A DNA stretch of 56,117 bases from a virus (Duplodnaviria; Caudoviricetes): IMG/VR virus record IMGVR_UViG_3300042868_001938, positions 1 to 56,117 of that record, one strand, 5' to 3'. Of this stretch, positions 702 to 48,103 are shown in pieces. The notes below the pieces were generated by a model, which ran no database searches, was not told the origin of the DNA, and saw only the letters and a program-made list of their open reading frames with translations. The position numbers and the translations under genes are program-made. Within the stretch, counting starts at the first letter, position 1. Each line of letters starts with the position of its first letter.

Positions 702-2095
702 TTTGGATTCAATTGATTAACTTCTTGACACAAACGGTAGAAGTTTAAATACTCAGGAAATACTGATAGCATGTCTGCATCTCTGCGTTCATCTAATTCA
801 TTGAACCAATTGTAGAAATCTCTGCGACCCTCTATCAATTTAGCATCTGAGTAATTTGTTTCAGCCATATAATCTACTACACGTTTGAACTTCTCATACT
901 CAATTGTAGTGAATGCTTCTGCTTTGTTGTCGTCTACATGTTCTTCCATGAACTTTAATGCATCATGCATGTAGGGCATGAATTCTTCTTTAGGAAGAAT
1001 GTTCATATCATATTGAATAGGATCACGCAAGTAAGGGGTGTCAAAACGAATACGATGTTTGTCTGAATCTTTGTCTTCATACCATCCATATTGCTTGCGC
1101 CATTCTAAGAATTTACCCAAGAATTCTTTGAATGTCGTGACACTAAAGATATTGAAAGTAATCATGAATGTGATTGGACTGTCTGTGTTCTGTAGATATG
1201 TATGAAAGTTCTTCTCCCACAGTTCTAAATCAAGACCTGTGCGAATATACTCAGCACGTGGGCCCCATGTATCTAAGCTAGTAAATAATTTGAAGCTACG
1301 AATCTTATTATCGTCACATAGTTGCTTAACTGATGTTGATAGCTTTTCAACCAATGCAGTCTTTGTCCCTAAGTTGCTATTGATGTTCAACTCTAACCAG
1401 GGCATAGGATCATTGTCAATCTCTTTCAGTAGCTTCCATGTGCTTGTATGCATCGTAGGTTCTCCCCCGGTCACACGCATGATATTCAATGTCTTGCGTA
1501 GTTCAGGCCACCATTTCCAAAATGCGTCAACATAGGGGTTTTCTTCTTCACGTTGATACAACTTCATCCAATCAATGTCGCAACGATGATTCGTTACTGT
1601 AGTGACAGGACCGTGATCTTTAATCTCGTTGAAGAATCGTGTACTGTATTTGGGGTGACAGTATCCACACTTAAAATTACACTCATTCCCGAAGTTGATT
1701 TCCAAATATTCAGGATTGATATTTTGATCCCAAGGACCTTTAAGGGTTTGCTCATAACGTTCCTCTGTAAAAATGCTACTGTTACGTATATGTCTATCAC
1801 TTATATAGTCCGGACCCATTGCTTCAATGTTCCAGCAATATTGACATCCTGCAGGCTTTTCACCTTCTAACATCATCTTTCGTTCCATCTTCTTTTCTTG
1901 CGTATTGTGCAACGCTGATGGATTATCTTTAAGCTCACTGAGTGGAATCTTATGTGGTTTAGGGTGATAACAACTGTGTGTCTCACCTGATTGCAGATAC
2001 ATTGTTACATGATGCCATTTGGCAAGGCAGAACGTAGGTGTAGCTTCGTTCTCAATCTTTATCTTAATCTGTTTGATTCTATCGTGTTCTGCCAT
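698..2095 (-). CDS. Radical SAM protein with N-terminal twitch/SPASM-like domain
   Basis: CNFKCGYC (CxxxCxxC), TGGEP, NSN motifs; N-terminal FCLAKW..SCYHP..GCQYCW. Confidence 0.88.
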   Translation of the reverse strand: MAEHDRIKQIKIKIENEATPTFCLAKWHHVTMYLQSGETHSCYHPKPHKIPLSELKDNPSALHNTQEKKMERKMMLEGEKPAGCQYCWNIEAMGPDYISDRHIRNSSIFTEERYEQTLKGPWDQNINPEYLEINFGNECNFKCGYCHPKYSTRFFNEIKDHGPVTTVTNHRCDIDWMKLYQREEENPYVDAFWKWWPELRKTLNIMRVTGGEPTMHTSTWKLLKEIDNDPMPWLELNINSNLGTKTALVEKLSTSVKQLCDDNKIRSFKLFTSLDTWGPRAEYIRTGLDLELWEKNFHTYLQNTDSPITFMITFNIFSVTTFKEFLGKFLEWRKQYGWYEDKDSDKHRIRFDTPYLRDPIQYDMNILPKEEFMPYMHDALKFMEEHVDDNKAEAFTTIEYEKFKRVVDYMAETNYSDAKLIEGRRDFYNWFNELDERRDADMLSVFPEYLNFYRLCQEVNQLNPK

Positions 2096-23200: not shown

Positions 23201-26200
23201 AGTTATAGACTCTAGTTAAAGGATAGATACTAACATCTAATGAGTTTGCGAAAGAATATGTATTTGTTACATACGCAGCCTTAGAAGGTAACATATCAGA
23301 CCAGAAGAATGGTTCGCTGTCAGTTTTTGAAGCAGCCATTTGGTCTAGTGCGTTGTCTAGCATTTCAGCAGGAGTTTGTAATCTAGAATACGCAGTCTTG
23401 TTAACAGTGTCAACTAGTAATGTCTTGAAGGCAATATACTCTCTGCTGTTAAACATCAATGCATTAAACAAGTTGTGATTTTGCTTACGCAAGAATACGC
23501 TAGGCAATACTAAGCTTGCACTATTCTGAATGATTCTGTTGCCCCATGGCACAACATTGCCTAAGTCACGATAGTTGTTTGAGCCAAAAACTTCACCGGT
23601 TGTATTTGGGTTGTTATAGAAAATACTCTGATACTGGCCGCGAATGTCACCAATGTTAGCGATAGTCAAGTCTTGATTCAATGGGTTGTTGTTCAAGTTA
23701 ACAGGTATAGTATAATAAGCAGTCTTACTCACTTGGTCGCTTAATAACAACACTTGAACAATCTGTGCTTCTACAGGCGTGGTCAACATCACAATAGTTG
23801 TGCTGTTGTTAGTTGTAGTATAAGAATACTCAGTTGCATCTAACAAAATATTGTTAGCATACACTTGAATAACTGGCCACTTAGATTGTGTCTCACCAAT
23901 AGTAGCAATATCTAAGAAGAAGGTGTCTATTGTGTCGGGGCCGTATGTATATTGGAACAACTGATACTGCACGCTAGGAGCGACGGCTGTTTGCCAGCCC
24001 AACTGTCTATTAAATGTCGCGGTAGAAGTGTAGTTATATACGTATCCAGTGTTTACTTTTTGGGTGACAGGAGTAGATCCATTAACATAGTCAAACGTAT
24101 CGGAGTTTAGCGAAACATCAAAGCTAATATCTCCTACGTTGTTAACAGAGCTATAGCGTACTGGGAACCCTAATACGGTATCATCTAATCCAGCACTTGC
24201 AATACCATATGCAAATAGTTTTGTTCCGACAAAAGAACTACCAACATATACAGAGCGGTCACCAAAACTGATGCCGTTGCTATCGTAGATATCAAATAAC
24301 GGTGGCTGATTTGCGTTTACTTTTTGCTGTGAACTAATCCATTCAACGCCATCAAAGTGGAAATCTTTTCCTGCATTGTTGTATCCTCTAAAAGCAACAG
24401 TCTGCTCGTTAGGCAATACGTCACCGTCAGCCGCTTCGCTCAATGTAATAATTGGTGATCCTGATGAACTGACAGTAGAGAAGTGAACTACGTAAATTTT
24501 ATTACGTACTTCCAAATCAGAATCTACTGTGAATACTATGCGACTACCTTCAAATAATGCATAGTTATCAACAGTGGTATCAGTTGATACTAACGCCGCC
24601 ACTGATGTGGATGCAAACAATGTGTCGCTAGCCCACACTATAGTAATAGTAGTAGTAGTAGTTGTTTGAGAGATAGTTGATACTAATGAATTATTTGGTA
24701 ATAGATTAGTAGAGTCAGCAATGTACTGTCCTACTTGCAATGATCCAAACAAGTTTGCATTTGCTACAGTGATTGTAGTACTCAACGGGGTTACAGTAGC
24801 TACCATAGAGCCACCACTAGCAGTAGTTACAGGTAATACATCACCGTCTTGTGTCAATGAGATTGTAAATTTAGTTGTGTCTAGTATATCCTTGATATAA
24901 TAAACTGCACCTGAAGTAAGACCACCGATCATTGTACCAGAGAACACAATCTTGTCATTGACCTTCATATCAGCCGTTGTTTCAAGTGAATCTAATGTTA
25001 ATGTGTTTGCTGGGTACCCGCTGGTATCGGTAACAGTATGAGTAATGTATACAGATGCCGTACCAGAACCTGAACCAACACCTGTTGCAACAAACGTTGT
25101 GCCCACTGTGTTTGCGGTTGCACCTATAGCGGTAAAGTTAGTTGTGCCTAAGCTGATAATTTTATATTGTTTACCGATAGTAAAAGAACCAGCAGATAAT
25201 AGTGTACCTACGAAAGATGCGCTTGCAGTAGTATAAGAAGCAACGTCAGGATAATAGCTCGGCTGGCCGGCAACTTGTGTGAATGCGTCAGTAGTTCGCA
25301 TGTCAATAAAATCAACCGGAGCTTTACCAATTGCTCCTGCGTTGAATAGTGACAAGTTTGGATAGAATTCGATAATTGGGCGCTTAGCCTTGTTATTAAT
25401 CGTGGCTAGAACAGTTGCTATGCTTGGATTATTATTGTATGTTGCAGATGCATTGATGACATCAATATGGAACCATCTGTTACTTCTTGACCACGCATTT
25501 TTGTTGATACTATTTCTAGAAATAGTAATGTAGTCAGGTACTACAGGTATATATAAGTCGCTATCATAGTTTCCAATATCATACGGGGTAGTATCATAGG
25601 GGATATATGTACTTACTGTAAATGACTCTGGTGCAATTAGGTCCGCGACAGGAATTAATTCAATTGCTGTTCCTACACCCTCAACATAGTACTGTCCATC
25701 TTTGTATGATGATGGGTATATGTCACCTTCAAATACCACTTTAAGACCGTTGGTGAAAACAACACCATTTGATGCTGTGTAATTAATTTTACCTAATATG
25801 TCAGTTTCAACATTAATTCTGTTAGTAGTGTTGCTATCAATTAATTTGATTACACCTACTTTATTAGCAGTAGTGCCATCTTGGTAGTACAACGTATCTA
25901 ACAATGAACTTAAGTAAGGAACTATAGAAATATTACCATTAACGTCTTTGTAAAATTCTCTGTTAATCCACTCGCTACCATATTGAGGAAGAATTTTTTC
26001 TTCAATTGGAATAGGACCTGCAGGTAATAATCTGATTGTTGGGTTTGAAGGGTCTCCTACGTAAGTAACAGTATAGAAGGTGTTATTCACTTGTGTGTAG
26101 TAACCTTCTTCCATCAAACCTTGATTAATATTACCTGTCATTGCGCCGCTAGCAGTCGTCAATGTTACTTGCGTTCCACCTAGAGAAAGTGATACGGTAA

Positions 26201-27350
26201 ACTGTGTACTGTTAACAATGGATTCTATATAATATAGAGTATTAGGTAGTGTTTCTGAGTACTGTGATATTCCACCAAAAGGTGTACCGGTGAAGGTAAT
26301 AGTTGAACCTACAATTAAATCAGCAGTCGTGTTGCATGTAATAAGATTACCAGTAGCATTAGTATTTGTCACTGATATTGTTGCAGCCGGAACTAAATCA
26401 TTATTTACGTCAAACGCAGTATAGTCAAAGAAGTTAGATATAAATCCGCTCTCATTTACAACACCGGTGTTGTAGAACATCACAGTCAATCCTTCTAGTG
26501 AAGTGATACTATCAATTCCACCAATGTCACTTACTCTCGCTCCGTTAACTTGAATGAAGGGTAATGTACTAACTACACCTACTGAATTGTTTCCGGGGAA
26601 ATTGTATTGGTTCTGTGAATTTTTATTAGGTACAGTGAAAGTAACGATACCGGACGTAGTACCGTTATTAGTTACTCCAAATACATCTCTTGTTTGTATG
26701 TTAGGTTGAGTTAGACTATATCCAGTTACACCCGGTTCACCTTGAATCCAAAACTGTGTTGTTTGGTTAACTGCAAAAGTATATGTGCCACCACGCAACA
26801 ACGTTAGTGTTGGGTTAGTTGAGCCGGCACCACCGGTGGGTGTTGTTATTATATATCCGTTGGTAGCATCATTTACAATATAATCAGTTGAGATGAAAAC
26901 AGTATCCGCAGAAACCACGACTTGTTCTGGGCCGTTAGGTAACCAGTAATATTGATTATAGTTAATAATCTTGTCTAAGTTAGTAAACGAGTCCCATGAA
27001 TAGAACTCGCTATTAAACAAACGATTATTATCATCAGTAATAGCACCTTCTAACTTAAGTGCATCAATGATACCAGGATATGATATAAAATCTTGCGCTG
27101 TAGATTCGTTGTTCTTAGTAAAGACAACGCCTGGTTCAAGTTGATAATCAACTCTAGTTTTTGTAGGTTCAGTAACGTAATAATCCTTAGGATTAATACC
27201 GTAACCAAACTTACTACCAATATAACCTTCTATCTTTTGAGTATTAGGTTGTTGTACAATCTGATCCAATGTAGCTCGTAAAAACTGAGCATTAGTTGGA
27301 GTTTTGAATATGTCTGGTAAAAAATTTAGTGTTCTGATTCGTGTTGCCAT
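8262..27350 (-). CDS. Giant (6362 aa) baseplate/fibre-associated structural protein with repeated beta modules and two propeller-like regions
   Basis: Uninterrupted 19-kb ORF; ~15 copies of a (C)-x-T..G/N..I.F.G..GG....YY(V/I)..(F)T(I/V)S module; FG-GAP-like and BNR/Ycf48-like repeats; follows the gp6-like gene. Confidence 0.75.
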   Translation of the reverse strand: MATRIRTLNFLPDIFKTPTNAQFLRATLDQIVQQPNTQKIEGYIGSKFGYGINPKDYYVTEPTKTRVDYQLEPGVVFTKNNESTAQDFISYPGIIDALKLEGAITDDNNRLFNSEFYSWDSFTNLDKIINYNQYYWLPNGPEQVVVSADTVFISTDYIVNDATNGYIITTPTGGAGSTNPTLTLLRGGTYTFAVNQTTQFWIQGEPGVTGYSLTQPNIQTRDVFGVTNNGTTSGIVTFTVPNKNSQNQYNFPGNNSVGVVSTLPFIQVNGARVSDIGGIDSITSLEGLTVMFYNTGVVNESGFISNFFDYTAFDVNNDLVPAATISVTNTNATGNLITCNTTADLIVGSTITFTGTPFGGISQYSETLPNTLYYIESIVNSTQFTVSLSLGGTQVTLTTASGAMTGNINQGLMEEGYYTQVNNTFYTVTYVGDPSNPTIRLLPAGPIPIEEKILPQYGSEWINREFYKDVNGNISIVPYLSSLLDTLYYQDGTTANKVGVIKLIDSNTTNRINVETDILGKINYTASNGVVFTNGLKVVFEGDIYPSSYKDGQYYVEGVGTAIELIPVADLIAPESFTVSTYIPYDTTPYDIGNYDSDLYIPVVPDYITISRNSINKNAWSRSNRWFHIDVINASATYNNNPSIATVLATINNKAKRPIIEFYPNLSLFNAGAIGKAPVDFIDMRTTDAFTQVAGQPSYYPDVASYTTASASFVGTLLSAGSFTIGKQYKIISLGTTNFTAIGATANTVGTTFVATGVGSGSGTASVYITHTVTDTSGYPANTLTLDSLETTADMKVNDKIVFSGTMIGGLTSGAVYYIKDILDTTKFTISLTQDGDVLPVTTASGGSMVATVTPLSTTITVANANLFGSLQVGQYIADSTNLLPNNSLVSTISQTTTTTTITIVWASDTLFASTSVAALVSTDTTVDNYALFEGSRIVFTVDSDLEVRNKIYVVHFSTVSSSGSPIITLSEAADGDVLPNEQTVAFRGYNNAGKDFHFDGVEWISSQQKVNANQPPLFDIYDSNGISFGDRSVYVGSSFVGTKLFAYGIASAGLDDTVLGFPVRYSSVNNVGDISFDVSLNSDTFDYVNGSTPVTQKVNTGYVYNYTSTATFNRQLGWQTAVAPSVQYQLFQYTYGPDTIDTFFLDIATIGETQSKWPVIQVYANNILLDATEYSYTTTNNSTTIVMLTTPVEAQIVQVLLLSDQVSKTAYYTIPVNLNNNPLNQDLTIANIGDIRGQYQSIFYNNPNTTGEVFGSNNYRDLGNVVPWGNRIIQNSASLVLPSVFLRKQNHNLFNALMFNSREYIAFKTLLVDTVNKTAYSRLQTPAEMLDNALDQMAASKTDSEPFFWSDMLPSKAAYVTNTYSFANSLDVSIYPLTRVYNFATANYYGVLVYLVRTTNGFTQTTQLVKNVDYSVSATAPSLTVTLDLLPNDQIIIKEYNQTYGSYAPNTPTKMGLYPASIPSVVLDSSYNVPTYFIKGHDGSYNKLYGEYDPVTGVLIDFRDQALLEYETRVYNNLKLSNTIPVQEYEVLPGFFRETDYTYDEVLKIYSETFLNWVGQNRINYKRQIFNKQDEFTWNYYQSGNKINKAVIQPGNWRGVYQYFYDTSTPDTSPWEMLGFKNMPSWWATRYGPAPYTSDNLVLWGDLAAGINWNNGDPVVIEQAIRPQLLDVLPVDSAGNLVSPFVSLVGNYNSNIFQRDWKVGDAGPAEFSYRRSSSYPFDLMRIIALTKPAEFFNLAVDVDNYKYNEEFNQYLVNDRSHLVLGDIEIYGNGTAKTSYINWIVDYEKQVGIDATQNISDLLKNLDVRLVYRAAGFTDKNLLKFYVEKGTPNSRNASLLIPDESYSVLLYDNQPFTRIVYSGVVIQLSKNGYTVFGNSQTEAFFTVQDPLINGNYYTLEVDKTTVKLANDYSDNISYVPYNTEFYNVQEVAQFIESYGRYLESQGVVFDQIENGLPITWRQMVAEFLYWSQTGWQTGSIVTMNPAASLLLIDKENSIVQPLTFRQQNFVLNQNLYPIQSKDLSILRDGTAFTVQPLNQGDTVAYGQFNLSNFEHGIVFDNVTLFNDIIYNTITGLRQTRILTKGTKTAEWNGTVDAQGFILNQDNIVEWTKEFKYTTGSIVKYKNKYWIATKIIQAKELFDERDWKQTDYNEIQKGLLPNSSTRSYESTLYYDVNKANLENDADLLSFSLIGYRPRDYLALADLTDITQINVYKNMIKNKGTRNATNAFKGANLPQGGIDYDIYENWAILSGEFGGVLNNNFIEFKINENYMTGNPSIVGITTGTPNEGVQQEIPLYSLFNYGRLVTDENVLATIPTITPSTVFPDAGYVNFNDVKMVSYFYNNMATAINQNGTIIPIDNFYVRDYVWLADYLGSWQVYTPTSMGQVVLIKNNLNGTVTATFTNPHKLKKYEAFAIVNFDNVINGYYIATLVIDQYRVIINLNLNPSILNVTGQGVGFKFQSQRVNTPADIINLPLLDSEFTKNKVWVDTNNDGAWAVYRKGINYQYESEITKENTVTFGSAVAYTSVLGYLVGDAGDGKAYRYTYNDLNNVYDLVQTISHSASFGSSIAYADNIFVISEPTGASQVHIYDLQNTTLVDDLIVYQSPITARDSSTNWGSAVEISGDKKWLYISATDLNRVYVYRLSQLTEEYEYVTYLTDASLASGDMFGYSIATDYYGDTVVISAPNQDYSATIDNWGYTYVFDRVVQNIEAQYTTPVLSQQAFTLAWTPTTISTAASATSSSTNRITCVSTSGFVGGTLGQPVIFSGTVLASSNIDPNTVYYIKQVVDATNFTISLTRNGAVFELDTDSGSGMIVNVQSTPLYVSVNGTLLVDNDYAVVGSQVIVTKSINAGDIVNVSGNQFTKIQTLTTEATPRVGVHFGQSVDTTTYASEIIVGAPFALNSENQEGAVHRYTNAGGKYGVLIGTTDCSLTVTRNVLLNGYLVSIPAGNATVAANYINSSKITNIQASAINGKLVISLINTDLSTPNDKLTIAVTNTATLAELGISVFTQTQVITCPHKTGPTQFGNVVQFNQAGSFVASAPTGTRYVATTFDFSDDENQDDDTIFDNNATQWIDTFSYAGAVYMFDYLSVANESLLTPGKFAYAQSVNALNEEYGSQPMYGHAVDFSDYHVIVGTPNMTNGDSNGQVVTYINTSGQADWSVYRSSAAVVDVDKIQNVQLFSAETNNTLDNLDYIDPLQGKILGSVRQNIDCISNIDPAGYNTTPVAQSTQRPLAWKADKVGQIWFDTSAVRFVNYHQNDNTYNSKYWGTLFPGSSVAVYTWISSNVPPSSYVGPGVPYDRTVYSIDYISNPSGSLTPVYFFWARNTNIVFENIGKTLADSVIQAYILSPKSSGIAYFAPLLPNVFALYNCAEYINANDTVLHIGYATGDNGDVPHSRYSLIRANYADDFLPGLPATTSTDSPQYLYDRMLDSLCGVDETGAVVPNPYLPKAVQLGVLVRPRQSFFINRFLALKNYLTFANEVLSLYPITETRRTSFLTTSGAFYNTSNYWSFTNWWAIGYNDNTKSAVQVPIYADLAALEVDTGTIARVAANGDGKAETYIKNTDGTWTRIGLNNGTITINSALWDYSAARLGFGDNFYDTNPFDEYPSEETRYIVRALNEQIYINDLLIYRNQSLILLFEYIQSETIESQNYLPWLNKTSFVDVAHTIRELVPLEVFQSDNQDFLAGYLNEVKPYHVVIKEFLFKYTKTEVYEGDITDFDLPAKYNTALEKYITPELVYGNPSSDNQYSSDSAIWQDPAYSQWFSNYGVSITGQPDYPISVLATYVALNTHSFAVDNAYGFPINGVVKIGTELIGYSSVDRNLNIISGLTRGVNGTDISTHIPGEIITIDLPAVLVLNGGRGYAEPPKVTAYIDTSIYPEPDELAQLVAVMNLDSVLSVTVVNPGKGYAVLPEIIIDSAVTVTFASSEVSVTTNTIQLYAPLLATGDLVQYSVMSGTTPIQGLSIGQWYYVKVLETVPTVTVALYSRYSNAVKDQDRVELYSTGTGVGHVFSEGARASCISSSSPVRENNIAIRFDRTTYDSQVIDWLAGKFYGSYYAGTYNSSQTVASSVITLETTQPPIESILASAQGIAFEIVTVDNDQELTWSSFIRSVKSTEATYDSILLTPLDGNNPDLSDLELNASGTTLGFYVGMPVKFKGAVGSSNIVNDVTYYVKEVLSEISFTISATVNGSIFSLGTQTIGAAGLQCFVGEVTNTAVITVNYPGIRNVTNTLKTLNTITVPLNDTGTGGTAGFYVNLPIFFTGNVFGGIVENLTYYVTTVIDSQTFTMSENQDPVSVTVYSATASTNIINCESTLDLNINDPVIFNNMLIAGSAVTDFGGIQDGTTYYVSSIINPTQLTISSVVNGGTFDITTDIVAASNTSALMTSQSDTVTLTTATGNMTMNVSLPVSPGQVNGQLFTLYPTSEQYNNVTGTDGSLITRTIEKTLATVNRIAITETSGGLTNLYDNMPIEVASNIGGLTTGTQYYIVDHGNISVTVTNTSSTGNALLCTSTASLYVDMPIIFSGTGLGTIDLSVEYYVKSISTSTTFTVTNTPGGAETVMSNDNGTMVGTGSPYIQVSQTLGGTAETLSTATGPVTLTQTPIGTPSFDASYILGGYRVTIEDGATGYAVDNIITISGNDIGGSTTANDLTLTVDSVSSTGAITSVICSGTPAGTSVQYYFRVLSANQFGVYSNSLMTIPVSGIDFPYQGVTSTTVTELDTYDITVDSLTGFSVNDPVVFTGTVAGNIELGTTYYIKTLTPTFTISETVGGASFDVGTETDLSFTMAKSGDFALLPEPFSFNQSVVKYNNRVYRCIISNNDTDFIFGKWELLDSGDRYLNALDRIVGYYQPTANMPGLDLTQLVEGITYPDSTYLGNAFAPEQQFEVDTILQDQPFYPTEVDNVSITWDGLTYLGASNTPDYSAIIASAPGDEWTIDKLANTSLNFTDMLYAGGYYVLTTRNAATPIYRSNNGTDWTSNGQYTPYSSTPYDDFPYDVTALEVASISLNSVGYSDSLGLWVAVGENIVTSTDTYVWRETYFFPDDLVNQFNGVDGVAVTSFAGFVAVGKGQRYDYSTGVTQTVDTNILMTSTTGYQWSTIPSLTTKGFNSATDNGSLIIVVGEDGVIYSSVNGALWLGVSETLVYGSFVTANQVSVQSTLGFAVNDKIRFTTSFGVISASTDYWIKTVDSSSRVTISTSLGGSTLTLTSAQPTVATQMYLYPETDTLNDVYFANSLFMAVGDNGIIRTSSDGYSWTTQTSGTTEKLNGVMFNADDSVWIVVGDNNVILQSSDDGSTWESISLFTVDPTIYDVQGNEFMYGYGPEELVPGVVTDNVTMIVATRPGTNWSVETYAHAGYDVVSREYTPESATQTIYSFAELVQTPAQLAVFAIDGTTGLSTTLIGPNNDSVTADYSINWITSTITLNAPLGGTPTNKLRIDLYETGNGDQLVKASTKTDPLRINTVTGWNEIYVNCNYTGTIFNGSGVIQSGTNEKFATASVTDSVTDTILCDNIRDFNINDPITFQGAVFGGIAEDTTYYVKTVSIITNKITVSLTYNLSTGTAGPTLALTSDTGNMIAVINVGTGTTYTDPLLYHNGVKLLHGTTGTVTKTSSLNNAITCNTTGSMILGTPIVFSDTMFGGVIQPQTVYYINSIYDANEFTVSETYPGTDLALTTATGGASFVTNDYAFGIAPNGVSAKLIFASQYDTDVDYITYTLFGETAPEQYGYTIPETQYFEGDGSTDVFVLLNNNELDNVTSGIVEIDGIRVSDTEYTIDSYTDTVTFTTAPSLGSVISVTTYNITLRQYLTTQYGITGNTVSSIADITNAISAPIASTNVTATDGTTEYITCASTTNFIVGQTIEFKGTSFGSIATNGTVYFVRAVIDSTHFTIENEAGTIVNLTTGTGLIVAYVGGQPAVRVTTVTAHGYSDGDIVMIDGTTGSTQLNNQIFYVKVINSIQFDLYSEPYDSSYAAVNYPITEISAYTGGGYTWIQNIFPLVTAVSTGTTVVVSSHRILGDTTSMTVGTPILFSLFGTQIGDVLDCGIVVGTTYYIREIFNVGEFSVSETRGGTEFALTADSQTFNMTQWEQDNVDRLWVTVNGYRVPSSSLRLNPNNQVSILSPITSADEVIITSMIPSATPNEEVYLLNVNQTNQASVYRANTLTRTWLTQPLYNTSSSIQVHDVTRITDSVIENTTTPSPEVNGNYHVGITADKNIISAISVYNTTTGMMVTSYTIKVINLAPTLVITAGVSTGDDLVITVIEGNLVYINGEQIKFTSVNLATNTLSGLQRGANGTGEQAVIPLYSEVFGILSSNRMTNTQYNKEWNSYVYNTTDGDPLQISQTAAAIFLNTDIS

Positions 27351-42910: not shown

Positions 42911-44991
42911 TAACTATAAAGAATATTACACTACGCAACTTCCTATCTATCGGTAACGTAACACAAGCAGTTGACTTTGACAAGAAAGACATTACACTTA
43001 TTCTAGGTGAGAATTTAGACTTAGGAGGTGATGGTGCTCGTAATGGTACTGGTAAAACTACGTTGATTCAAGGTCTATCCTATGCCTTGTTTGGTGTGCC
43101 CATTAACTCTATTCGTAAAGATAATTTAGTTAATCGTACAAATGGTAAGGGCATGTTAGTTACATTAGAGTTTAACGTTAACGGCACTGAGTACAAGATT
43201 GAGCGTGGTCGTAAGCCCAACGTATTGAAGTTTTATGTAAACGATGTTCAACAGAAAGCTACTGAAGACCAACAGGGTGAGAACAAAGAAACACAAGCGG
43301 CAATTGAGCGTGTGTTGAATATGAGTCCCGAAATGTTCAAACACATTGTTGTGTTGAACACTTATTCCGAACCATTCCTTGCACTAAAAAACAACGAGCA
43401 AAAAGATATCATTGAACAACTTTTGGGTATCACTTTATTGAGTGAGAAAGCAGAAGTAGTTAAAGACTTGATCCGTCAAAGCAAGGATGATATCCAACAA
43501 GAAGAATTTAGAATCAAAGCAGTTGAAGAAGCTAACAAGCGAGTCAAAGAACAGATCGATAGTGTTAGAAGAAGACAAACACTGTGGCAACGAAAGCATG
43601 ATGAAGACTTGTCTTTCATTGCCACTGAGTATGACGAGTTGAGTAAAGTTGACATTGATACTGAACTACAGGCTCACAAAGACTTAGTGGTTTGGAACTC
43701 ACAAAAGCAACAGCAAGAGGCATACGATGCATTGATTGCTAGACAAACAGCTTGGATGCAAAAACAAGACAAAGACATTGCTACACTCAAACTTAAAATG
43801 GATGAGTTGAGCCATATTGACTTTGTTCATGAACTACAAGCTCACACTGATTTGGCTGTGCATAACCAACAAGTTCAACTAAAGACTGCGCACGACAGTA
43901 AGGTTGATAGTTTACGTAAAGATATTACTAAAGAAAGTAAGAACTACAATAAGTTAACCCAAGAAGTTGATACACTTAAAGAACATAAATGCTATGCATG
44001 TGGACAAGATTTCCATGATGACCAACATACTAGTGTTCTAAACAGCAAGATTGAATTGTGGAATACAAGCAAGAGTCATTTGGATGATTTGCGTTTTCAG
44101 TTAGATGAACTTGTTGCTAATCCAATCGTTGTAGGAGATAAACCTGTTACACATTATAAGACAGAGGTTGAAGCAGTACGTCAGTCAACGGAGATTGATA
44201 ACATCAAAAAGCAGATTGACGAAAAATCCAGCGAGAATAACCCCTTTAGTGAACAACTTTTTGACACGCCTAGCGTCACTTTGGGTAGTAAGCCATCTAC
44301 TCATTACGATACCGAAGCCCAAGCAGTGGAGCACAGGACTAAGATATCAAATCTATTATCACAGATTGAGAACAAAGCGCAGGAAACTGATCCGTATCAA
44401 GAGCAGATTCTTGAAATGGAAGCACAAGCTCTGCAAGAAATAAATTTTGATACGATTAACAATATCACAAAAGCAATGGAACATCAAAAGTTCTTACTAG
44501 ACTTGTTAACTAGTAAAGACAGTTTCGTTCGTAAGAAGATTATTGACCAGAACTTGAGTTACTTGAACGCACGACTGACGCATTACTTAGATAAGATTGG
44601 CTTGCCTCATAATGTCGTATTTAAGAACGACTTGACAGTTGAAATCACTGAGTTAGGTCGTGAACTTGACTTTGACAACTTGAGTCGCGGTGAACGTAAT
44701 CGTTTGATCTTGGGACTGAGTTTTGCTTTCCGTGATGTATGGGAGAACTTGTATGCTCCGGTTAACACATTGTTCATTGACGAGTTGATTGACAGTGGTC
44801 TTGACACTATGGGTGTTGAGAACAGTCTAGCAATTCTCAAAGATATGAGTCGCCGTCGTCATAAGTCAATTTGGCTTGTGTCACACCGTGAAGAACTAGC
44901 AGGTCGTGTACCAAACGTTCTCAAGGTTATCAAAGAAAACGGCTTTACTTCATATAGCAATGATAGCGAGATATCAGATGTTCGAACTTGA
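42907..44991 (+). CDS. gp46: Recombination ATPase, Rad50/SbcC-like
   Basis: Walker A NGTGKTT, CYAC zinc hook, LSRGE signature, FIDELID Walker B, VSH. Confidence 0.93.
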   Translation: MITIKNITLRNFLSIGNVTQAVDFDKKDITLILGENLDLGGDGARNGTGKTTLIQGLSYALFGVPINSIRKDNLVNRTNGKGMLVTLEFNVNGTEYKIERGRKPNVLKFYVNDVQQKATEDQQGENKETQAAIERVLNMSPEMFKHIVVLNTYSEPFLALKNNEQKDIIEQLLGITLLSEKAEVVKDLIRQSKDDIQQEEFRIKAVEEANKRVKEQIDSVRRRQTLWQRKHDEDLSFIATEYDELSKVDIDTELQAHKDLVVWNSQKQQQEAYDALIARQTAWMQKQDKDIATLKLKMDELSHIDFVHELQAHTDLAVHNQQVQLKTAHDSKVDSLRKDITKESKNYNKLTQEVDTLKEHKCYACGQDFHDDQHTSVLNSKIELWNTSKSHLDDLRFQLDELVANPIVVGDKPVTHYKTEVEAVRQSTEIDNIKKQIDEKSSENNPFSEQLFDTPSVTLGSKPSTHYDTEAQAVEHRTKISNLLSQIENKAQETDPYQEQILEMEAQALQEINFDTINNITKAMEHQKFLLDLLTSKDSFVRKKIIDQNLSYLNARLTHYLDKIGLPHNVVFKNDLTVEITELGRELDFDNLSRGERNRLILGLSFAFRDVWENLYAPVNTLFIDELIDSGLDTMGVENSLAILKDMSRRRHKSIWLVSHREELAGRVPNVLKVIKENGFTSYSNDSEISDVRT

Positions 44992-45628
44992 TAGTATTAA
45001 ATCCCTGCATCTAGAAACAAGTAGTGTTTGTAACGCGGCTTGTCCTATGTGCGGGAGAGAAATTGATCCAAAGTTTAATAAAGCTACTGACCCAAAATCA
45101 TTATCACTAGAAAAAATAAAACAATTGTTTAATGACCAGTTTATTAGTAATCTAGAATATATGTGGATGTGCGGCAATTACGGAGACCCGGCGGCGGCAC
45201 CCGAGTGCATCGACATATTTAAATACTTTAGACATGTAAATGATAATATCAGATTAGGTATACATACAAACGGTGGGTTACGTAATACATCTTGGTGGAC
45301 AGAACTAGGTAGCGTACTATCTAAACTAGGCGATGAATGTTATTTTGGTATTGATGGATTAAAAGACACAAACCATATACATCGTGTAAACACTGACTTT
45401 GAAAAGATAATGAAAAATGCCTCTGCATTTATTGCCGCGGGCGGCAGAGCACATTGGGAATACTTGGTGTTCGAATATAATGAACACCAAGTTGAGGAAG
45501 CTAGAAAGTTAGCAATTGACATGGGGTTCATAGGGTTCCGAACTAAAGTCAGTAGTCGCATGAAAAAACCTATCTTCATGCACTTGCGTGAAACATTCAA
45601 GCCACCAAAAGGAATCGAATATCAATGA
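44978..45628 (+). CDS. Radical SAM core domain protein
   Basis: CNAACPMC, CGNYGDP, HTNG, FGIDG; ATG at 44978. Confidence 0.85.
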   Translation: MFELDSIKSLHLETSSVCNAACPMCGREIDPKFNKATDPKSLSLEKIKQLFNDQFISNLEYMWMCGNYGDPAAAPECIDIFKYFRHVNDNIRLGIHTNGGLRNTSWWTELGSVLSKLGDECYFGIDGLKDTNHIHRVNTDFEKIMKNASAFIAAGGRAHWEYLVFEYNEHQVEEARKLAIDMGFIGFRTKVSSRMKKPIFMHLRETFKPPKGIEYQ

Positions 45629-45903
45629 TTAAATGTAGAGTATTAACTGAAAAGAGTATATTTGTTACTTCTAATGGTGACATATTACCGTGTTGTTACA
45701 TGTATGATGGTGGACCAACGCTCACTGCGGAAATTAGAGAAGCTATAAAATCTCCCAATTTCAAAACAATAACAGATTCATGGAACACTGATAAACCATT
45801 CGCACCTTGTTATAGATTATGTGATGACAGTACCATTAATAATCCTAGCAACATGATAAATTTTGAAAAGCAATGGAAAATTAAAGACGCTACTCCCAAG
45901 TGA
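45625..45903 (+). CDS. Stand-alone SPASM/twitch-like Fe-S domain protein
   Basis: C..KSIFVTSNGDILPCC..PCYRLC; ATGA overlap with the rSAM gene. Confidence 0.7.
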   Translation: MIKCRVLTEKSIFVTSNGDILPCCYMYDGGPTLTAEIREAIKSPNFKTITDSWNTDKPFAPCYRLCDDSTINNPSNMINFEKQWKIKDATPK

Positions 45904-45914
45904 TAAGTATTACT

Positions 45915-46484
45915 ATGACAAGTCCACAAAAAGCAAAAGGTTCAGGTTTCGAGCGAGAAGTCGCAAAATTTCTTTCTGATATTTACGGAGAGAGTTTTAT
46001 TCGTGCGCCTGGATCTGGAGCTTATGTGGGTGGAAAGAATCAATCACGTACAGAATTCTTGCATGAAGGTCAAATTCGCTCTTTCAAGGGTGACATTGTA
46101 CCCGGTCAAAGTTTCAGTAAAATGAACATTGAGTGCAAGTTTTATGCTGATTTTCCTTTTCACTTAGTACTTACAGGCGAGTGTAAGCAGTTAAATACTT
46201 GGATTGAACAGTTGATGGATGTTGCCGAAGAAGGCGATATAAATCTATTGTTCATGAAGTTTAACCGCAAAGGTCGTTATGTCGCTGTGCAATGCGGCGC
46301 TACTTGGAAAACTGATAACTTTATGTATTATTCTTCAAGTAAACTTGGTGATTGGCTAATCATTGAGTTTAATGACTTCTTTAAACACAACAGAGACCTT
46401 CTCAAACTATATTCGGGCAAAACAGACACCACGTCAACTATTACCTTTACAACAACCCCAATACAAATCCCTCAAATCAATTAA
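45915..46484 (+). CDS. PD-(D/E)XK nuclease, Holliday junction resolvase-like
   Basis: KAKGSGFERE..SGA..GDI..IECK; ATG at 45915 with GATAAGTA at 45902-45909. Confidence 0.75.
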   Translation: MTSPQKAKGSGFEREVAKFLSDIYGESFIRAPGSGAYVGGKNQSRTEFLHEGQIRSFKGDIVPGQSFSKMNIECKFYADFPFHLVLTGECKQLNTWIEQLMDVAEEGDINLLFMKFNRKGRYVAVQCGATWKTDNFMYYSSSKLGDWLIIEFNDFFKHNRDLLKLYSGKTDTTSTITFTTTPIQIPQIN

Positions 46485-46496
46485 TTTAATATAAAA

Positions 46497-46985
46497 ATTT
46501 GTTGTCCTGGCTGCAGGACCTCCTTGAGTTTGTACAGATTGTGCTGTGCTGACGGATCTGGAGTAAGCATGATTAGCGATAGTCATGGAATACCGAAGAG
46601 GCAATCGGAAAAGCGAACCTCTAACAAGTCTATATCTACTTTATCTTTGCGATATAGAATGTGCGTTACAGAAGAATCAACATCAAAACTTGACAGCTTC
46701 ACTACAGTCCCATAAACTTTACAGTGTAACCGGTAGCGTTTAATAGCATCAAATAGCTAATTAGACGGGGAAAAGATAACAAAGGATGACGGGCATGGCA
46801 TATTCCCTTTACCATTGGTAGTGCTTAATAGCACTACCATGGCTTCTAAGCGGCAATCATATCCCGTATAGAGATAGATTGATTAACCGTAAGAAATAAC
46901 GAATGAGTGCAAAGCACGAATGAGTTAGATGAACGAAGTTCATCTCTAAATGAAACCCGGTAAGATAAATGACATATTACGGTTA
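46497..46985 (+). ncRNA. Candidate large structured non-coding RNA (family not recognised)
   Basis: At least 10 helices, GNRA loop, G-U pairs valid only on + strand, two pseudoknot-type pairings; only long non-coding gap in the window. Confidence 0.65.
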
Positions 46986-47210
46986 GAAGAATGGTAACTG
47001 TGACTTCTTAGTAATATCCAAATTACTCTCAATCAATTCATTAATATGAATTCGTTCATCCATGGACATATTGAGTGCATCCTCATAGGATATACCACCC
47101 CTCATGTACCACGCTAAACTCAATGCATTCTTCTTTATATCACTGCAATCTTTTTCCATTTCGTCTAACAGCTTCTGTACGCCTCCGGGGTCAAGGCGTA
47201 GAAGCCTCAT
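46983..47210 (-). CDS. Small tail/baseplate assembly protein; probable -1 frameshift extension of 47207-48037
   Basis: WYMRGGISYEDALNMSMDER motif; in the -1 frame at the slippery site of the upstream gene; ATGA overlap. Confidence 0.7.
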   Translation of the reverse strand: MRLLRLDPGGVQKLLDEMEKDCSDIKKNALSLAWYMRGGISYEDALNMSMDERIHINELIESNLDITKKSQLPFF

Positions 47211-47219
47211 GCGAAAAAA
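47170..47219 (-). promoter_or_regulatory. Programmed -1 ribosomal frameshift signal
   Basis: Heptamer T TTT TTC (47219-47213), 6-nt spacer GCATGA, hairpin GGCTTC-TACGCCTT/GAGGCGTA-CA-GAAGCT (47206-47170). Confidence 0.7.
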
Positions 47220-48037
47220 TCAGATGTGTTTAACGTAAAGATTTGTTCGTAATCATGTTGACAATGGATGCACTTCAACTTTAATGGTTTAATTTGAGTG
47301 CTTTCTCTCAATTTTGTATTATGGTCACGCAATGTTACATACATGTTTTTATCGCAATGTGTTAGGAAGTCAAGCAAGTAATCGTACTCTGTTACAACTA
47401 CTGTAGGTGTTTTGATATACTCAATTGCTTGAGCTAGAATCTTCATCGTTAGTTCAGTAATAGTTCTTACAGCTTCCTGAGTCTTTTTATTACGTACTTC
47501 CATGTCTTCTTCATATTCGATAGATTGGAATGTACGTTGCGCATCAAATTGACCAAGAGCAGCCTGATTCATTTCTCTGTACGTAAGAGGTCTGAACTTG
47601 ACTTCTAACTCATTTATTTGTATGACTTCATTATAATCAGCGGCCTTCAGTCCGGTTAACAGTCCAACTAAGTTGACACCGTAGTCAGCGACTTCTTTGC
47701 ATTCAGGGCATATAGTAGTGATGTCCATGCTATTGCCATTAGTTGCGGCTTTGATACCAACTAAGATAGCATCAAAGTCTGTACTGCTAACAGCCCAAGG
47801 ATCTTTAATATCAGGTATGCAACTCTTAATAAGTTCAGCCATTGCAGTTCCGTTGAACAATGCATCAGGTGTTCTAGCAGTGATTTCATCAATCGCAGTC
47901 ATCGGGTACACGGGTAGATCACCGGTTTCAGGTAAATCTATCACTCCGGGTTTGTATCCTACACCGCCACTAGGTAGTTTTAGATAAATCGCAGGTCTGC
48001 GGAAATACTGTCTTAGGGGGTTATTTGAAATTGCCAT
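47207..48037 (-). CDS. gp26: Baseplate hub assembly protein, T4 gp26-like (tail assembly chaperone position)
   Basis: LKLPSGG, PMTAIDE, D.DAIL..I, CPEC and CIHC Zn pairs, terminal DFF. Confidence 0.7.
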   Translation of the reverse strand: MAISNNPLRQYFRRPAIYLKLPSGGVGYKPGVIDLPETGDLPVYPMTAIDEITARTPDALFNGTAMAELIKSCIPDIKDPWAVSSTDFDAILVGIKAATNGNSMDITTICPECKEVADYGVNLVGLLTGLKAADYNEVIQINELEVKFRPLTYREMNQAALGQFDAQRTFQSIEYEEDMEVRNKKTQEAVRTITELTMKILAQAIEYIKTPTVVVTEYDYLLDFLTHCDKNMYVTLRDHNTKLRESTQIKPLKLKCIHCQHDYEQIFTLNTSDFFA

Positions 48038-48075
48038 TTATTGTCCTTGTGTTAAAAAGTCGTAGTTAGCCCAAT

Positions 48076-48103
48076 ACTAAATACATTATAAAACATATTT
48101 AGT
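48076..48103. promoter_or_regulatory. Face-to-face late promoters ACTAAATA / TATTTAGT for divergent genes
   Basis: 8-bp inverted repeat at 48076-48083 and 48096-48103. Confidence 0.65.

What the first reader, a model, noticed from the sequence alone, without database searches (positions are those of the whole stretch)
46497..46985. ~490-nt multi-domain, pseudoknotted non-coding RNA candidate directly behind a PD-(D/E)XK nuclease
Seen: the only long gap in a tightly packed genome is almost fully base-paired. Helices: ATTTGTTG 46497-504/TAACAAGT 46622-29 (closes a 5' domain); GTCCTG/CAGGAC 46504-19; CAGATT/GATCTG 46535-60; CATGATTA-GCGA-TAGTCATG 46568-87 (GNRA loop); TCTATATC/GATATAGA 46629-58; GTTACA 46665-70/TGTAAC 46725-30; CGTTTAAT/ATTAGACG 46737-67; AAAGG/CCTTT 46781-810; TGGTAGTGCT-TAAT-AGCACTACCA 46816-39; AGATGAAC/GTTCATCT 46927-45; TAACCGTAA 46884-92/TTACGGTTA 46977-85. 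Non-canonical pairs are G-U on the + strand (A-C on the -), which gives polarity and argues for RNA-level selection. I recognise no tRNA, tmRNA, RNase P or intron core. Inference: an undescribed large phage RNA, co-transcribed with the gp46/47-resolvase block; it could be a ribozyme, an RNP scaffold/guide for the adjacent nuclease, or a replication-priming RNA.
Basis: partly seen in the sequence, partly recalled or inferred. Interest (0 to 1): 0.88.

Follow-up and report, generated by a model that had tools for sequence, protein, structure and literature searches.

The report
Large folded RNA behind phage resolvase gene
The gap holds a real, strongly conserved, knotted non-coding RNA of about 450 bases that giant lake-water phages always carry directly behind their DNA-junction-cutting nuclease gene; what it does is unknown.

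Summary
Window 46485-46982 has no coding signal and matches no Rfam family. On the + strand it folds into about 20 helices and two pseudoknots. On 52 distinct homologues, 122 pairs are 94.3% paired against 36-43% in slid controls, and 81 pairs show changes on both sides. A second sample agrees. G-U outnumbers A-C 300 to 72, which fixes the strand. Its closing helix and two others are not, and one is ambiguous.

The RNA is single-copy in uncultured jumbo myoviruses of 264-525 kb. It always starts 0-100 nt after the stop codon of an Hjc-like PD-(D/E)XK resolvase gene. Divergent relatives sit at the same place in other clades: at least 51 of 80 nuclease loci carry one. In 8 of 28 loci scanned with Rfam, the 5' domain is the orphan motif Polynucleobacter-1 (RF01718). 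The window RNA itself does not match RF01718.

A contig from an RNA library runs from the nuclease gene into the RNA. My best reading is a stable RNA carried on the resolvase transcript that acts with or on the resolvase. That function is inferred, not shown.

The parts
45900..46484 (+). PD-(D/E)XK nuclease gene (Hjc-like Holliday-junction resolvase), always directly 5' of the RNA
   Evidence: It matches PF24608 (7.9e-27) and phrog_244. The AF2 model has pLDDT 76.5. The best fold match is archaeal Hjc 2wiz_A, prob 0.97, E 8.8e-3. The gene lies upstream of the RNA in 72 of 76 loci found by an RNA motif alone; the other 4 are cut by the locus edge.
46495..46501 (+). Conserved single-stranded leader AAAUUNG just before P1
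   Evidence: A12, A13, U14, U15 and G17 are at least 94% conserved in 52 sequences. No covarying partner was found.
46504..46519 (+). P1 hairpin (46504-09 / 46514-19)
   Evidence: All 6 of 6 pairs show changes on both sides (helix 1).
46520..46563 (+). P2 (46520-23/46560-63), conserved internal loop (UUGAG ... GGAUCU) and P3 hairpin (46532-37/46544-49)
   Evidence: P2 is invariant within this clade (52 of 52). Sister clades replace it with CCGG/CCGU, CCUA/UAGG, CUCA/UGAG or CCCA/UGGG. Pair 46528-46553 covaries: GC 31, AU 18.
46568..46587 (+). P4 hairpin with a GNRA-type loop (GCGA; GUGA, GUAA or GCAA in relatives)
   Evidence: helices 5 and 6: 7 of 8 pairs changed on both sides.
46591..46735 (+). 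Central domain closed by long-range P5 (46591-95/46731-35). It holds P6/P6a (46597-46622), P7/P7a (46624-46662) and P8/P8a/P8b with the conserved ACUACAG...UUACAG loop (46665-46730).
   Evidence: helices 7-15. On a second sample it is 97.2% paired against 33-40% in slid controls, and 32 of 45 pairs changed on both sides. The CM R1 was built on 46588-46780.
46737..46767 (+). P10 hairpin
   Evidence: 10 of 11 pairs changed on both sides.
46768..46779 (+). Pseudoknot strand. GGGA (46768-71) pairs with UCCC 46708-11 (PK1). AGAUAA (46774-79) pairs with UUAUCU 46641-46 in the P7a loop (PK2).
   Evidence: PK2: 5 of 6 pairs compensatory, 98.7% paired. PK1: 2 of 4 pairs, 92.8% paired. Slid controls are 33-60% paired. 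In clade B, PK2 is kept as UAAUUG/UAGUUA (read by eye).
46781..46857 (+). 3' core domain: P11 (46791-93/46805-07), P12 (46812-15/46839-42 plus 46817-25/46830-38) and the conserved single strand GGCUUCUAAGCGGCAAU
   Evidence: helices 18-19. Invariant columns are listed. The G/U at 46850 co-varies with 46793, not as a Watson-Crick pair.
46858..46899 (+). Variable A/U-rich linker
   Evidence: low conservation and many indels.
46900..46945 (+). 3' hairpins. P13 is 46907-10/46914-17 flanked by GAAUGA repeats here; most relatives have stem-GA-stem-GAA-stem-GA-stem. P14 is 46927-34/46938-45 with a GAA loop.
   Evidence: helices 20-23 (P14: 6 of 8 pairs changed on both sides). Both hairpins are kept in clades B and C. 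A weak 17-nt tandem lies here.
46964..46982 (+). Conserved tail AUAAAUGA-N5-UUACGG; whether it belongs to the RNA is uncertain
   Evidence: It is over 90% conserved. It stays on the RNA side where - strand ORFs are inserted (L012, L021, L023, L028). The pairing with 46884-92 is not supported.
46983..48037 (-). Convergent neighbours: a 75-aa ORF and a gp26-like baseplate hub gene. They are context, not part of the RNA.
   Evidence: These proteins are only about 50-60% identical where the RNA DNA is 75-80% identical.

Best explanation
Window 46504-46945, perhaps extending to 46982, encodes a genuine non-coding RNA read from the + strand.

It has a conserved core of about 355 nt (46504-46857) in three domains: P1-P4; a four-way junction closed by P5, plus P10; and P11-P12. 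Two pseudoknots lock the core. A variable linker and two 3' hairpins (P13, P14) follow.

It is one member of a superfamily of RNAs that uncultured freshwater jumbo myoviruses carry immediately 3' of their Hjc-like PD-(D/E)XK resolvase gene. In some sister clades the 5' domain of that RNA is the orphan Rfam motif Polynucleobacter-1 (RF01718).

Shown: conservation, structure, strand, single copy per genome, and strict adjacency to the nuclease gene.

Likely (about 0.7): it is transcribed as the 3' extension of the resolvase mRNA.

Inferred (about 0.35-0.4): the folded RNA persists as a stable species and works together with or on the resolvase. It could be an RNP partner or an RNA decoy/regulator of a structure-specific nuclease that is toxic in excess. 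The many invariant unpaired bases would then be a protein- or tertiary-contact surface.

The confidence of 0.45 is for the whole statement including the inferred function; that this is a real structured RNA I put at about 0.97.
For: Structure:
- On 52 distinct homologues, 122 pairs are 94.3% paired against 35.9-42.6% in slid controls. 81 pairs have changes on both sides against 30-39 in controls. The covariation score is 0.350 against about 0.07, and 0 of 500 shuffles reach it.
- On 66 distinct rows found by an RNA motif rather than by the protein, pairing is 97.2% and 32 of 45 pairs are changed on both sides. The pseudoknots hold as well.

Strand: G-U 300 against A-C 72.

Not coding:
- Column entropy is flat over codon positions (0.67, 0.63, 0.64).
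- 297 of 316 indel runs are not multiples of 3.
- Stops of all three kinds occur in all six frames.

Selection on the RNA: its DNA is 70-97% identical in 79 of 80 loci, while the flanking hub protein is only about 50-60% identical.

Linkage to the nuclease:
- The nuclease lies directly upstream in 72 of 76 motif-found loci; the other 4 are at locus edges.
- In the loci inspected, inserted genes appear only downstream of the RNA or upstream of the nuclease, not between the two.
- Divergent RNAs sit at the same spot in at least 51 of 80 distant nuclease loci.

Homology chain:
- The clade-A CM hits clade B at E 2.5e-8.
- The clade-B profile hits the core behind RF01718 in L370 and L384 at E 1.6e-9. 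After iteration it hits the window RNA at E 1.1e-30.

Co-transcription:
- A 651-nt contig of an RNA library spans 46198-46848.
- In clade B and L341 the nuclease stop codon abuts or overlaps P2.

Copy number: exactly one copy in 5 of 5 phage records of 264-525 kb.
Against: - No experiment or raw-read data shows a discrete RNA, its ends, its strand or its abundance. The RNA-library evidence is contigs only, and such libraries can hold DNA.
- The nuclease family also occurs without any detectable RNA behind it. This is so in PA5oct and SCTP-2 and in 29 of 80 distant loci, so the enzyme does not need such an RNA in general.
- The nuclease has no extra domain that would suggest RNA binding.
- Overall gene order (SbcCD, nuclease, RNA, baseplate hub) is conserved across the clades. 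Adjacency may therefore reflect shared synteny and a shared promoter rather than shared function.
- No complementarity to other parts of the window exceeds chance.
Confidence: 0.45

Rival explanations
1. It is an independent trans-acting 'ornate' RNA: a scaffold, a homo-oligomeric assembly like ROOL or GOLLD, or a decoy for a host factor. On this view it merely rides on the resolvase late transcript, and its link to the nuclease is transcriptional only.
For: It is large, has several domains and pseudoknots, and has many invariant unpaired bases. It is single-copy in jumbo phages. The nuclease family works without it elsewhere. The 5' domain is swapped between clades (D1, a reduced D1, or RF01718), as if modules were exchanged on a common core. 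Phage-borne large RNAs that form RNA-only assemblies have precedent (PMC12286853, abstract seen in the listing).
Against: In the loci inspected nothing separates it from the nuclease gene, even though genes are inserted on both outer sides. There is no sequence or CM similarity to GOLLD, ROOL, OLE or raiA. No consistent self-complementary loop was seen (P12 loops, by eye).
Confidence: 0.28
2. It is a ribozyme. For example, it could be a self-processing element that cuts itself out of, or defines the 3' end of, the resolvase mRNA, or a trans-acting catalyst.
For: It has high information content. Invariant bases are concentrated in junctions and pseudoknot strands. It has a compact knotted core of about 355 nt. 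It lies inside a longer transcript and would need processing to be released.
Against: It matches no ribozyme family in Rfam 15, even at E up to 10. The contigs give no sign of discrete ends. From my own recall, earlier large bacterial RNAs suspected of catalysis (HEARO, OLE, ROOL, GOLLD) turned out not to be ribozymes.
Confidence: 0.12
3. It is a purely cis-acting mRNA element. It could be a 3' stabiliser or terminator/insulator at the boundary between the + strand replication/repair block and the - strand baseplate block. Alternatively it could be a 5' regulatory leader of whatever gene follows, as Table 1 of Weinberg 2010 marks Polynucleobacter-1 as probably cis-regulatory.
For: In this clade it sits at a convergent gene boundary. 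It ends with two stable hairpins. In clade B and several RF01718 loci a + strand gene follows. Polynucleobacter-1 is marked 'cis-reg: y' in PMC2864571 (passage seen).
Against: A conserved core of about 355 nt with two pseudoknots is far more than a stabiliser or terminator needs. There is no hairpin followed by a U-tract. The downstream gene differs between clades or lies on the other strand, whereas the upstream nuclease is constant.
Confidence: 0.1
4. It is not an RNA gene. It would then be a missed or recoded protein gene, or a DNA-level element such as an origin or single-stranded DNA hairpins.
For: Stop-free stretches of 48-95 codons exist in the core. GCGAAGC-type GAA mini-hairpins are known from my own recall as stable DNA hairpins, and G-T wobble would also fit single-stranded DNA.
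Against: There is no codon periodicity, and the indels shift the frame. No single stop reassignment opens a frame. Long-range helices and two pseudoknots with compensatory changes and GNRA loops are typical of RNA. The region is present in RNA libraries.
Confidence: 0.03

Closest known systems
Polynucleobacter-1 RNA motif (Rfam RF01718; Weinberg et al. 2010, PMC2864571)
   Same: It occupies the same genomic slot: 10-102 nt after the stop of the homologous nuclease gene in 8 of 28 sister loci scanned (59-115 bits against a gathering score of 37). In L370 and L384 the RNA continues 3' of the motif into a core homologous to the window RNA. It is also known from freshwater, and its function is unknown.
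   Different: The window RNA and its clade do not match RF01718, even at E up to 10. Their 5' domain (P1-P4) is different. RF01718 models only 141 nt, and the shared central core, pseudoknots and 3' hairpins are in no Rfam model. It was listed as from Burkholderiales and probably cis-regulatory, not as a phage RNA tied to a resolvase gene.
GOLLD, ROOL and OLE: large 'ornate' bacterial and phage ncRNAs
   Same: These are also hundreds of nucleotides long, with many helices and pseudoknots. They are stand-alone and often phage- or prophage-borne, GOLLD partly from lake metagenomes, and their biological roles are still unclear.
   Different: There is no CM or sequence similarity. The window RNA is smaller. 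It is tied to a nuclease gene rather than to tRNA clusters (no tRNA in the window). Oligomerisation is untested.
omega-RNA / reRNA of IscB and TnpB (HEARO, RAGATH-18 type)
   Same: These are also large structured RNAs encoded directly beside, and co-transcribed with, a small nuclease gene. They were orphan motifs for years before the link to the nuclease explained them.
   Different: The nuclease here is an Hjc-like PD-(D/E)XK fold of 194 aa, not RuvC or HNH. There is no transposon context. No guide-like complementarity was found. The nuclease family exists without the RNA.
phi29 pRNA and T4 autogenous RNA operators (gp32, gp43, RegA)
   Same: These are phage RNAs that act through their fold, either with the packaging or DNA-metabolism machinery or as binding sites that regulate a nucleic-acid-binding protein.
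   Different: They are much smaller. The operators lie in 5' leaders, not 3' of the gene. There is no sequence or structure similarity. These comparisons rest on my own knowledge, not on a call.

Membership tests
Any Rfam 15 family (4227 covariance models) | CM score at or above the family's gathering score | tested here: not met
   There are 0 matches in the whole window. At E up to 10 on 46300-47300 only two chance hits appear: JUMPstart at 16.9 bits against 35, and RefA5 at 13.6 against 91. There are 0 hits in the RNA of 8 diverse clade-A loci.
Polynucleobacter-1 RNA (RF01718) | Match to the 141-nt covariance model (gathering score 37 bits) | tested here: not met
   The window has no hit at E up to 10. 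Sister loci do match: L370, L402, L377, L381, L384, L404, L357 and L359, at 59-115 bits.
Polynucleobacter-1 RNA (RF01718) | Same genomic position and a homologous remainder of the RNA | tested here: met
   All 8 RF01718 hits start 10-102 nt after the nuclease stop. The core 3' of the motif in L370 and L384 matches the clade-B profile at E 1.6e-9, and the iterated profile matches the window RNA at E 1.1e-30.
tRNA / tmRNA | Cloverleaf, or tRNA-like domain plus tag reading frame | tested here: not met
   ARAGORN finds 0 genes in the window, and there is no Rfam hit.
Group I / group II intron, RNase P RNA | Match to the catalytic-core models, and for introns an interrupted host gene with exons on both sides | tested here: not met
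   There are no Rfam hits. The nuclease ORF ends with a stop before the RNA, and the next genes are on the opposite strand.
Intrinsic terminator | G+C-rich hairpin followed by a U-tract | tested here: not met
   The scan finds no such site in 46485-46982. P14 is followed by CUCUAAA or CUUUACA.
Guide RNA of an RNA-guided nuclease (omega-RNA type) | Adjacent co-transcribed nuclease gene | tested here: met
Guide RNA of an RNA-guided nuclease (omega-RNA type) | RuvC/HNH-type effector and a variable guide segment complementary to targets | tested here: not met
   The effector fold is Hjc-like PD-(D/E)XK. The longest complementarity to the rest of the window is 12 nt, against 11-16 nt in 30 shuffles. 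Only 16% of the genome could be checked.
Type III antitoxin RNA (ToxI-like) | Tandem array of short repeats upstream of an endoribonuclease gene | tested here: not met
   The only tandem is a weak 17-nt x 2.6 repeat at 46894-46937. The RNA lies downstream of the gene.
Protein-coding gene (standard or recoded) | Conserved open frame, codon periodicity of substitutions, indels in multiples of 3 | tested here: not met
Homo-oligomeric RNA assemblies (ROOL/GOLLD type) | Defined multimer formed by the RNA alone | not testable with these tools
   This needs native gels, SEC-MALS or cryo-EM.

The most novel reading that the evidence does not exclude
The RNA is an obligatory partner of the Hjc-like resolvase. 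This would be the first RNA subunit, or RNA switch, of a structure-specific DNA junction nuclease. It might time, target or restrain cutting of branched DNA during packaging of very large genomes. Alternatively it is a new ribozyme class that processes the resolvase transcript. Either reading would also give a function to the orphan Rfam motif RF01718.
Probability: 0.25. Interest if true: 0.95.

Novelty: categorically new. Interest (0 to 1): 0.82.

Why it matters
Large, information-rich RNAs of unknown function are rare. Past examples led to new biology: the HEARO RNA turned out to be the guide of IscB, and ROOL and GOLLD turned out to form RNA cages.

This RNA class is abundant in lake phage metagenomes. 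It has an unusually clean covariation signal and two pseudoknots. It also has a fixed protein-gene partner, which gives an immediate and testable hypothesis.

The work also re-reads an orphan Rfam family, RF01718, which has stood uncharacterised since 2010. It appears to be the 5' module of a much longer jumbo-phage RNA attached to the resolvase gene.

I rate it 'categorically new' as an RNA family, because no model or paper I could search describes it. Whether its mechanism is new is unknown.

Tried and rejected
Readings rejected:
- Protein gene or recoded ORF: rejected.
- Known RNA family for the window RNA: none.
- Own late promoter: TATAAAAA at 46490-97 resembles the (C/A)TAAATA motif upstream of late genes. 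It is not conserved in relatives, where only AAAUUNG is, and where the nuclease stop codon often lies inside it. Not claimed.
- Sigma-70 promoters and intrinsic terminators: not above chance.
- Anti-Shine-Dalgarno mimic (the invariant CCUCCUU): dropped, because sister clades replace CUCC/GGAG with other complementary tetramers. The regex count is noisy: 27 of 78 against 2-10 in shuffles.
- Guide or antisense complementarity to the rest of the window: not above shuffles.

Searches that found no homologue:
- blastn against 50,697 phage records: none.
- nhmmer near the PA5oct and SCTP-2 resolvase genes: none.
- CM R1 on the whole genomes of PA5oct, SCTP-2, Atu_ph07, XaC1 and Phosso: 0 of 5. The tool ran this with stricter filters.
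All 80 loci returned were chance matches by R1, 0 of 80. Absence from genomes is therefore not shown.

Methods with limits:
- CM R2 of domain 1 was too clade-specific to align the other clades.
- ORF-based gap lengths proved unreliable, because spurious ORFs are called inside the RNA.

RNA-library contigs: no contig was laid on 44900-45860 or 46933-48100. Since these are contigs, that is not evidence of absence, and I draw no conclusion about RNA ends or relative level.

Rows left out:
- 7 distinct long gaps with inserted ORFs (L012, L021/26, L023/29, L028, L053, L064, L069) were left out of alignment A1.
- 8 loci were cut by contig ends.
- A2 used 33 of the 52 rows of A1, and A6 used 32.

Literature: searches found no description of this RNA. 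Fremin et al. 2023 (PMC10690425; I read the abstract, section 2.1 and passages) lists 8,495 IMG/VR candidates of 29-151 nt in supplementary files that I could not open. A fragment of this RNA may be among them. The supplement of Weinberg 2010 on Polynucleobacter-1 was also not visible.

Full report
**What is there**

The window is a 56-kb fragment (CheckV estimate 16% complete) of an uncultured myovirus. Its structural genes are T4-like: a Portal_T4 portal, baseplate wedge and hub, prohead protease, a gp55-like late sigma factor and SbcCD. The nearest cultured relatives are jumbo phages. The portal is about 50% identical to those of Atu_ph07, XaC1, PA5oct and Phosso. The nuclease is about 42% identical to those of SCTP-2 and PA5oct.

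Positions 46485-46982 are the only gap over 200 nt between ORFs of 70 aa or more. The gap lies between a + strand PD-(D/E)XK nuclease gene (45900-46484; PF24608, phrog_244) and a convergent 75-aa ORF followed by a gp26-like hub gene. The nuclease model (pLDDT 76.5) is closest in fold to the archaeal Holliday-junction resolvase Hjc (2wiz_A, prob 0.97, E 8.8e-3, TM 0.35/0.50). That match is weak but agrees with the family annotation.

**Not coding, not a known RNA**

All six frames carry stops of several kinds, so no single reassignment opens a frame. Across 52 homologues, column variability is flat over codon positions (0.67, 0.63, 0.64), and 297 of 316 indel runs are not multiples of three. 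ARAGORN finds nothing. Rfam 15 gives no match at gathering scores in the whole window. At E up to 10 it gives only two chance hits, and it gives none in the RNA of eight diverse close homologues.

**Structure**

The + strand folds better than shuffles (z = -3.60, 0 of 100 shuffles as good). The - strand does so less clearly (z = -2.53).

The decisive evidence is comparative. A search with the nuclease protein found 192 relatives in IMG/VR, and the best 80 loci were kept. In 79 of these 80, the DNA behind the gene is 70-97% identical to the window gap. The hub protein next to it is only about 50-60% identical in most.

From 73 gaps I obtained 59 distinct sequences. The 52 of at most 700 nt were aligned as A1. 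A model of 122 pairs in 23 helices is 94.3% paired, against 35.9-42.6% when partners are slid by 1-3 columns. It has 81 pairs with changes on both sides (30-39 in controls) and a covariation score of 0.350 (about 0.07 in controls). None of 500 shuffles reaches these values. G-U cells outnumber A-C cells 300 to 72, so the + strand is the folded one.

The architecture, in window coordinates, is:
- P1: 46504-19.
- P2/P3 with an invariant internal loop: 46520-63.
- P4 with a GNRA-type loop: 46568-87.
- A four-way junction closed by long-range P5 (46591-95/46731-35). It holds P6, P7/P7a and P8.
- P10: 46737-67.
- A single strand that forms two pseudoknots: PK1 46768-71 with 46708-11, and PK2 46774-79 with 46641-46.
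- P11, P12 and a conserved single strand, up to 46857.
- A variable A/U-rich linker.
- Hairpins P13 and P14, up to 46945.

**Independent sample**

Of the 80 loci returned, 76 are true homologues by both nhmmer and the covariance model R1. The other four are chance matches.

On these sequences (66 distinct rows) the central domain is 97.2% paired against 33-40% in controls, and 32 of 45 pairs are changed on both sides. PK2 has 5 of 6 compensatory pairs and is 98.7% paired. PK1 has 2 of 4 and is 92.8% paired.

Seven of the eleven are confirmed. The AAAGG/CCTTT helix is ambiguous. The closing helix 46497-504/46622-29, the helix at 46535-60 and the helix at 46884-92/46977-85 are not supported.

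**Context and distribution**

In 72 of the 76 motif-found loci the nuclease gene lies directly upstream. The other four are cut by the locus edge. Five large phage records of 264-525 kb, three of them complete, each hold exactly one copy.

Where extra genes have been inserted, they lie downstream of the RNA. Examples are - strand ORFs of 172-247 aa in the long-gap loci and a + strand 5'-3' deoxyribonucleotidase gene in clade B. Others lie upstream of the nuclease, such as the radical-SAM/SPASM ORFs in this window. None lies between the nuclease and the RNA in any locus I inspected.

DNA runs that hold the stretch are lake and other aquatic metagenomes: 14 runs hold at least half of its sampled words, four of which may be the source.

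**A wider family, and a link to a known orphan motif**

I repeated the search with an alignment of diverse nucleases, with PA5oct's as first row. It found 578 relatives, and I examined the best 80, L326-L405.

- R1 matched 16 of them strongly. It matched 7 weakly but significantly ('clade B', E 2.5e-8 to 1.6e-4 with filters off). All matches lie directly 3' of the nuclease gene.
- Clade B lacks P1 and P4. It has CCGG/CCGU in place of CUCC/GGAG in P2. It keeps P6, P7/P7a, P8, a PK2 with different complementary letters, P13 and P14.
- Other clades show further P2 variants (CCUA/UAGG, CUCA/UGAG, CCCA/UGGG) and the same general plan.
- Rfam found the Polynucleobacter-1 motif (RF01718) at 59-115 bits (gathering score 37) in 8 of the 28 sister loci scanned. 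It always starts 10-102 nt after the nuclease stop.
- In L370 and L384 the sequence after that motif matches the clade-B profile at E 1.6e-9 without iteration. The iterated profile reaches the window RNA at E 1.1e-30.

By at least one computed criterion, 51 of the 80 loci carry a related RNA behind the nuclease, and 29 show none.

RF01718 was published in 2010 as a candidate RNA from Burkholderiales and fresh water, and was marked as probably cis-regulatory (PMC2864571, Table 1 passage). It is the only paper in the library that uses the name. My reading is that RF01718 is the 5' module of one branch of this resolvase-attached RNA family. The window RNA itself does not match it.

**Expression**

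Four metatranscriptome runs from four studies were laid on 44900-48100. Their contigs cover 45927-46848. One 651-nt contig (X15) runs from inside the nuclease gene (46198) to 46848, close to the end of the conserved core. One 244-nt contig (X19) covers 46547-46790.

Contigs give no strand, ends or level, and RNA libraries may hold DNA, so this is only a weak hint of co-transcription. In clade B and L341 the nuclease stop codon abuts or overlaps the first helix, which leaves no room for a separate promoter. No conserved promoter or terminator is evident in the window.

**How it most likely works**

Shown: this is a conserved, compactly folded + strand RNA, single-copy, fixed to the 3' end of the resolvase gene.

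Likely: it is made as part of the resolvase transcript.

Inferred: because that adjacency has survived clade divergence, domain swaps and insertions on both outer sides, I favour a role with or on the resolvase (about 0.35-0.4). It could be an RNP partner. It could also be an RNA decoy or regulator of a junction-specific nuclease that must be restrained until DNA packaging.

Against this:
- The same nuclease family exists without such an RNA (and 29 of 80 loci).
- The protein has no extra domain.
- Overall synteny is conserved, so adjacency could be historical.

The rivals are an independent ornate RNA (0.28), a ribozyme (0.12), a purely cis-acting mRNA element (0.10), and no RNA gene at all (0.03).

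**Novelty**

No Rfam model matches the window RNA, and I could find no paper that describes it or the shared core. Supplementary lists of short IMG/VR candidates (PMC10690425) could not be opened and may hold fragments of it. The family is new and overlaps one orphan motif in its sister clades. Whether its mechanism is new is open.

Noticed in passing
L370:3124-3268, L402:3062-3211, L377:3051-3207, L381:2999-3140, L384:1557-1701, L404:3062-3211, L357:912-1068, L359:3039-3195: The orphan Rfam motif Polynucleobacter-1 (RF01718) lies in jumbo-phage contigs directly behind the same nuclease gene. It appears to be only the 5' part of a much longer RNA. This changes how that family should be read.
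   Followed up: partly
window 8262-27350 (-): There is a single ORF of 6362 aa next to the baseplate genes. I did not analyse it.
   Followed up: no
window 44906-45628 and 45625-45903 (+); 698-2095 (-): A radical-SAM ORF and a separate overlapping SPASM-domain ORF lie just upstream of the nuclease. A second radical-SAM-like protein lies at 698-2095. Their function is unknown.
   Followed up: no
L012:5076-5633 (-), L069:1938-2456 (-), L053:5061-5804 (-): Extra - strand ORFs are inserted between the RNA tail and the small ORF in some relatives. Two look like free-standing GIY-YIG homing endonucleases, and one has a GDSL-like N-terminus. I judged this by eye from the translations and did not test it.
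   Followed up: partly
window 46964-46982: The motif AUAAAUGA-N5-UUACGG is over 90% conserved. It stays with the RNA when ORFs are inserted after it. It resembles the late-promoter-like (C/A)TAAATA motif seen upstream of late genes. Its role is unexplained.
   Followed up: partly
window 46793 and 46850: G/U at 46793 (in P11) and G/U at 46850 (in the conserved single strand) change together without being complementary. This may be a base triple, or it may be phylogenetic coupling.
   Followed up: no
window, upstream of 48116, 51393, 53559 (+) and 7441, 30747, 31252, 40795, 48037 (-): A (C/A)TAAATA motif lies 10-40 nt upstream of many structural genes and resembles the T4 late promoter TATAAATA. 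I ran no statistics on it.
   Followed up: no
L353:3387-3908 (+): In clade B a 5'-3' deoxyribonucleotidase gene (phrog_2643) follows the RNA on the same strand, 7 nt after P14.
   Followed up: partly
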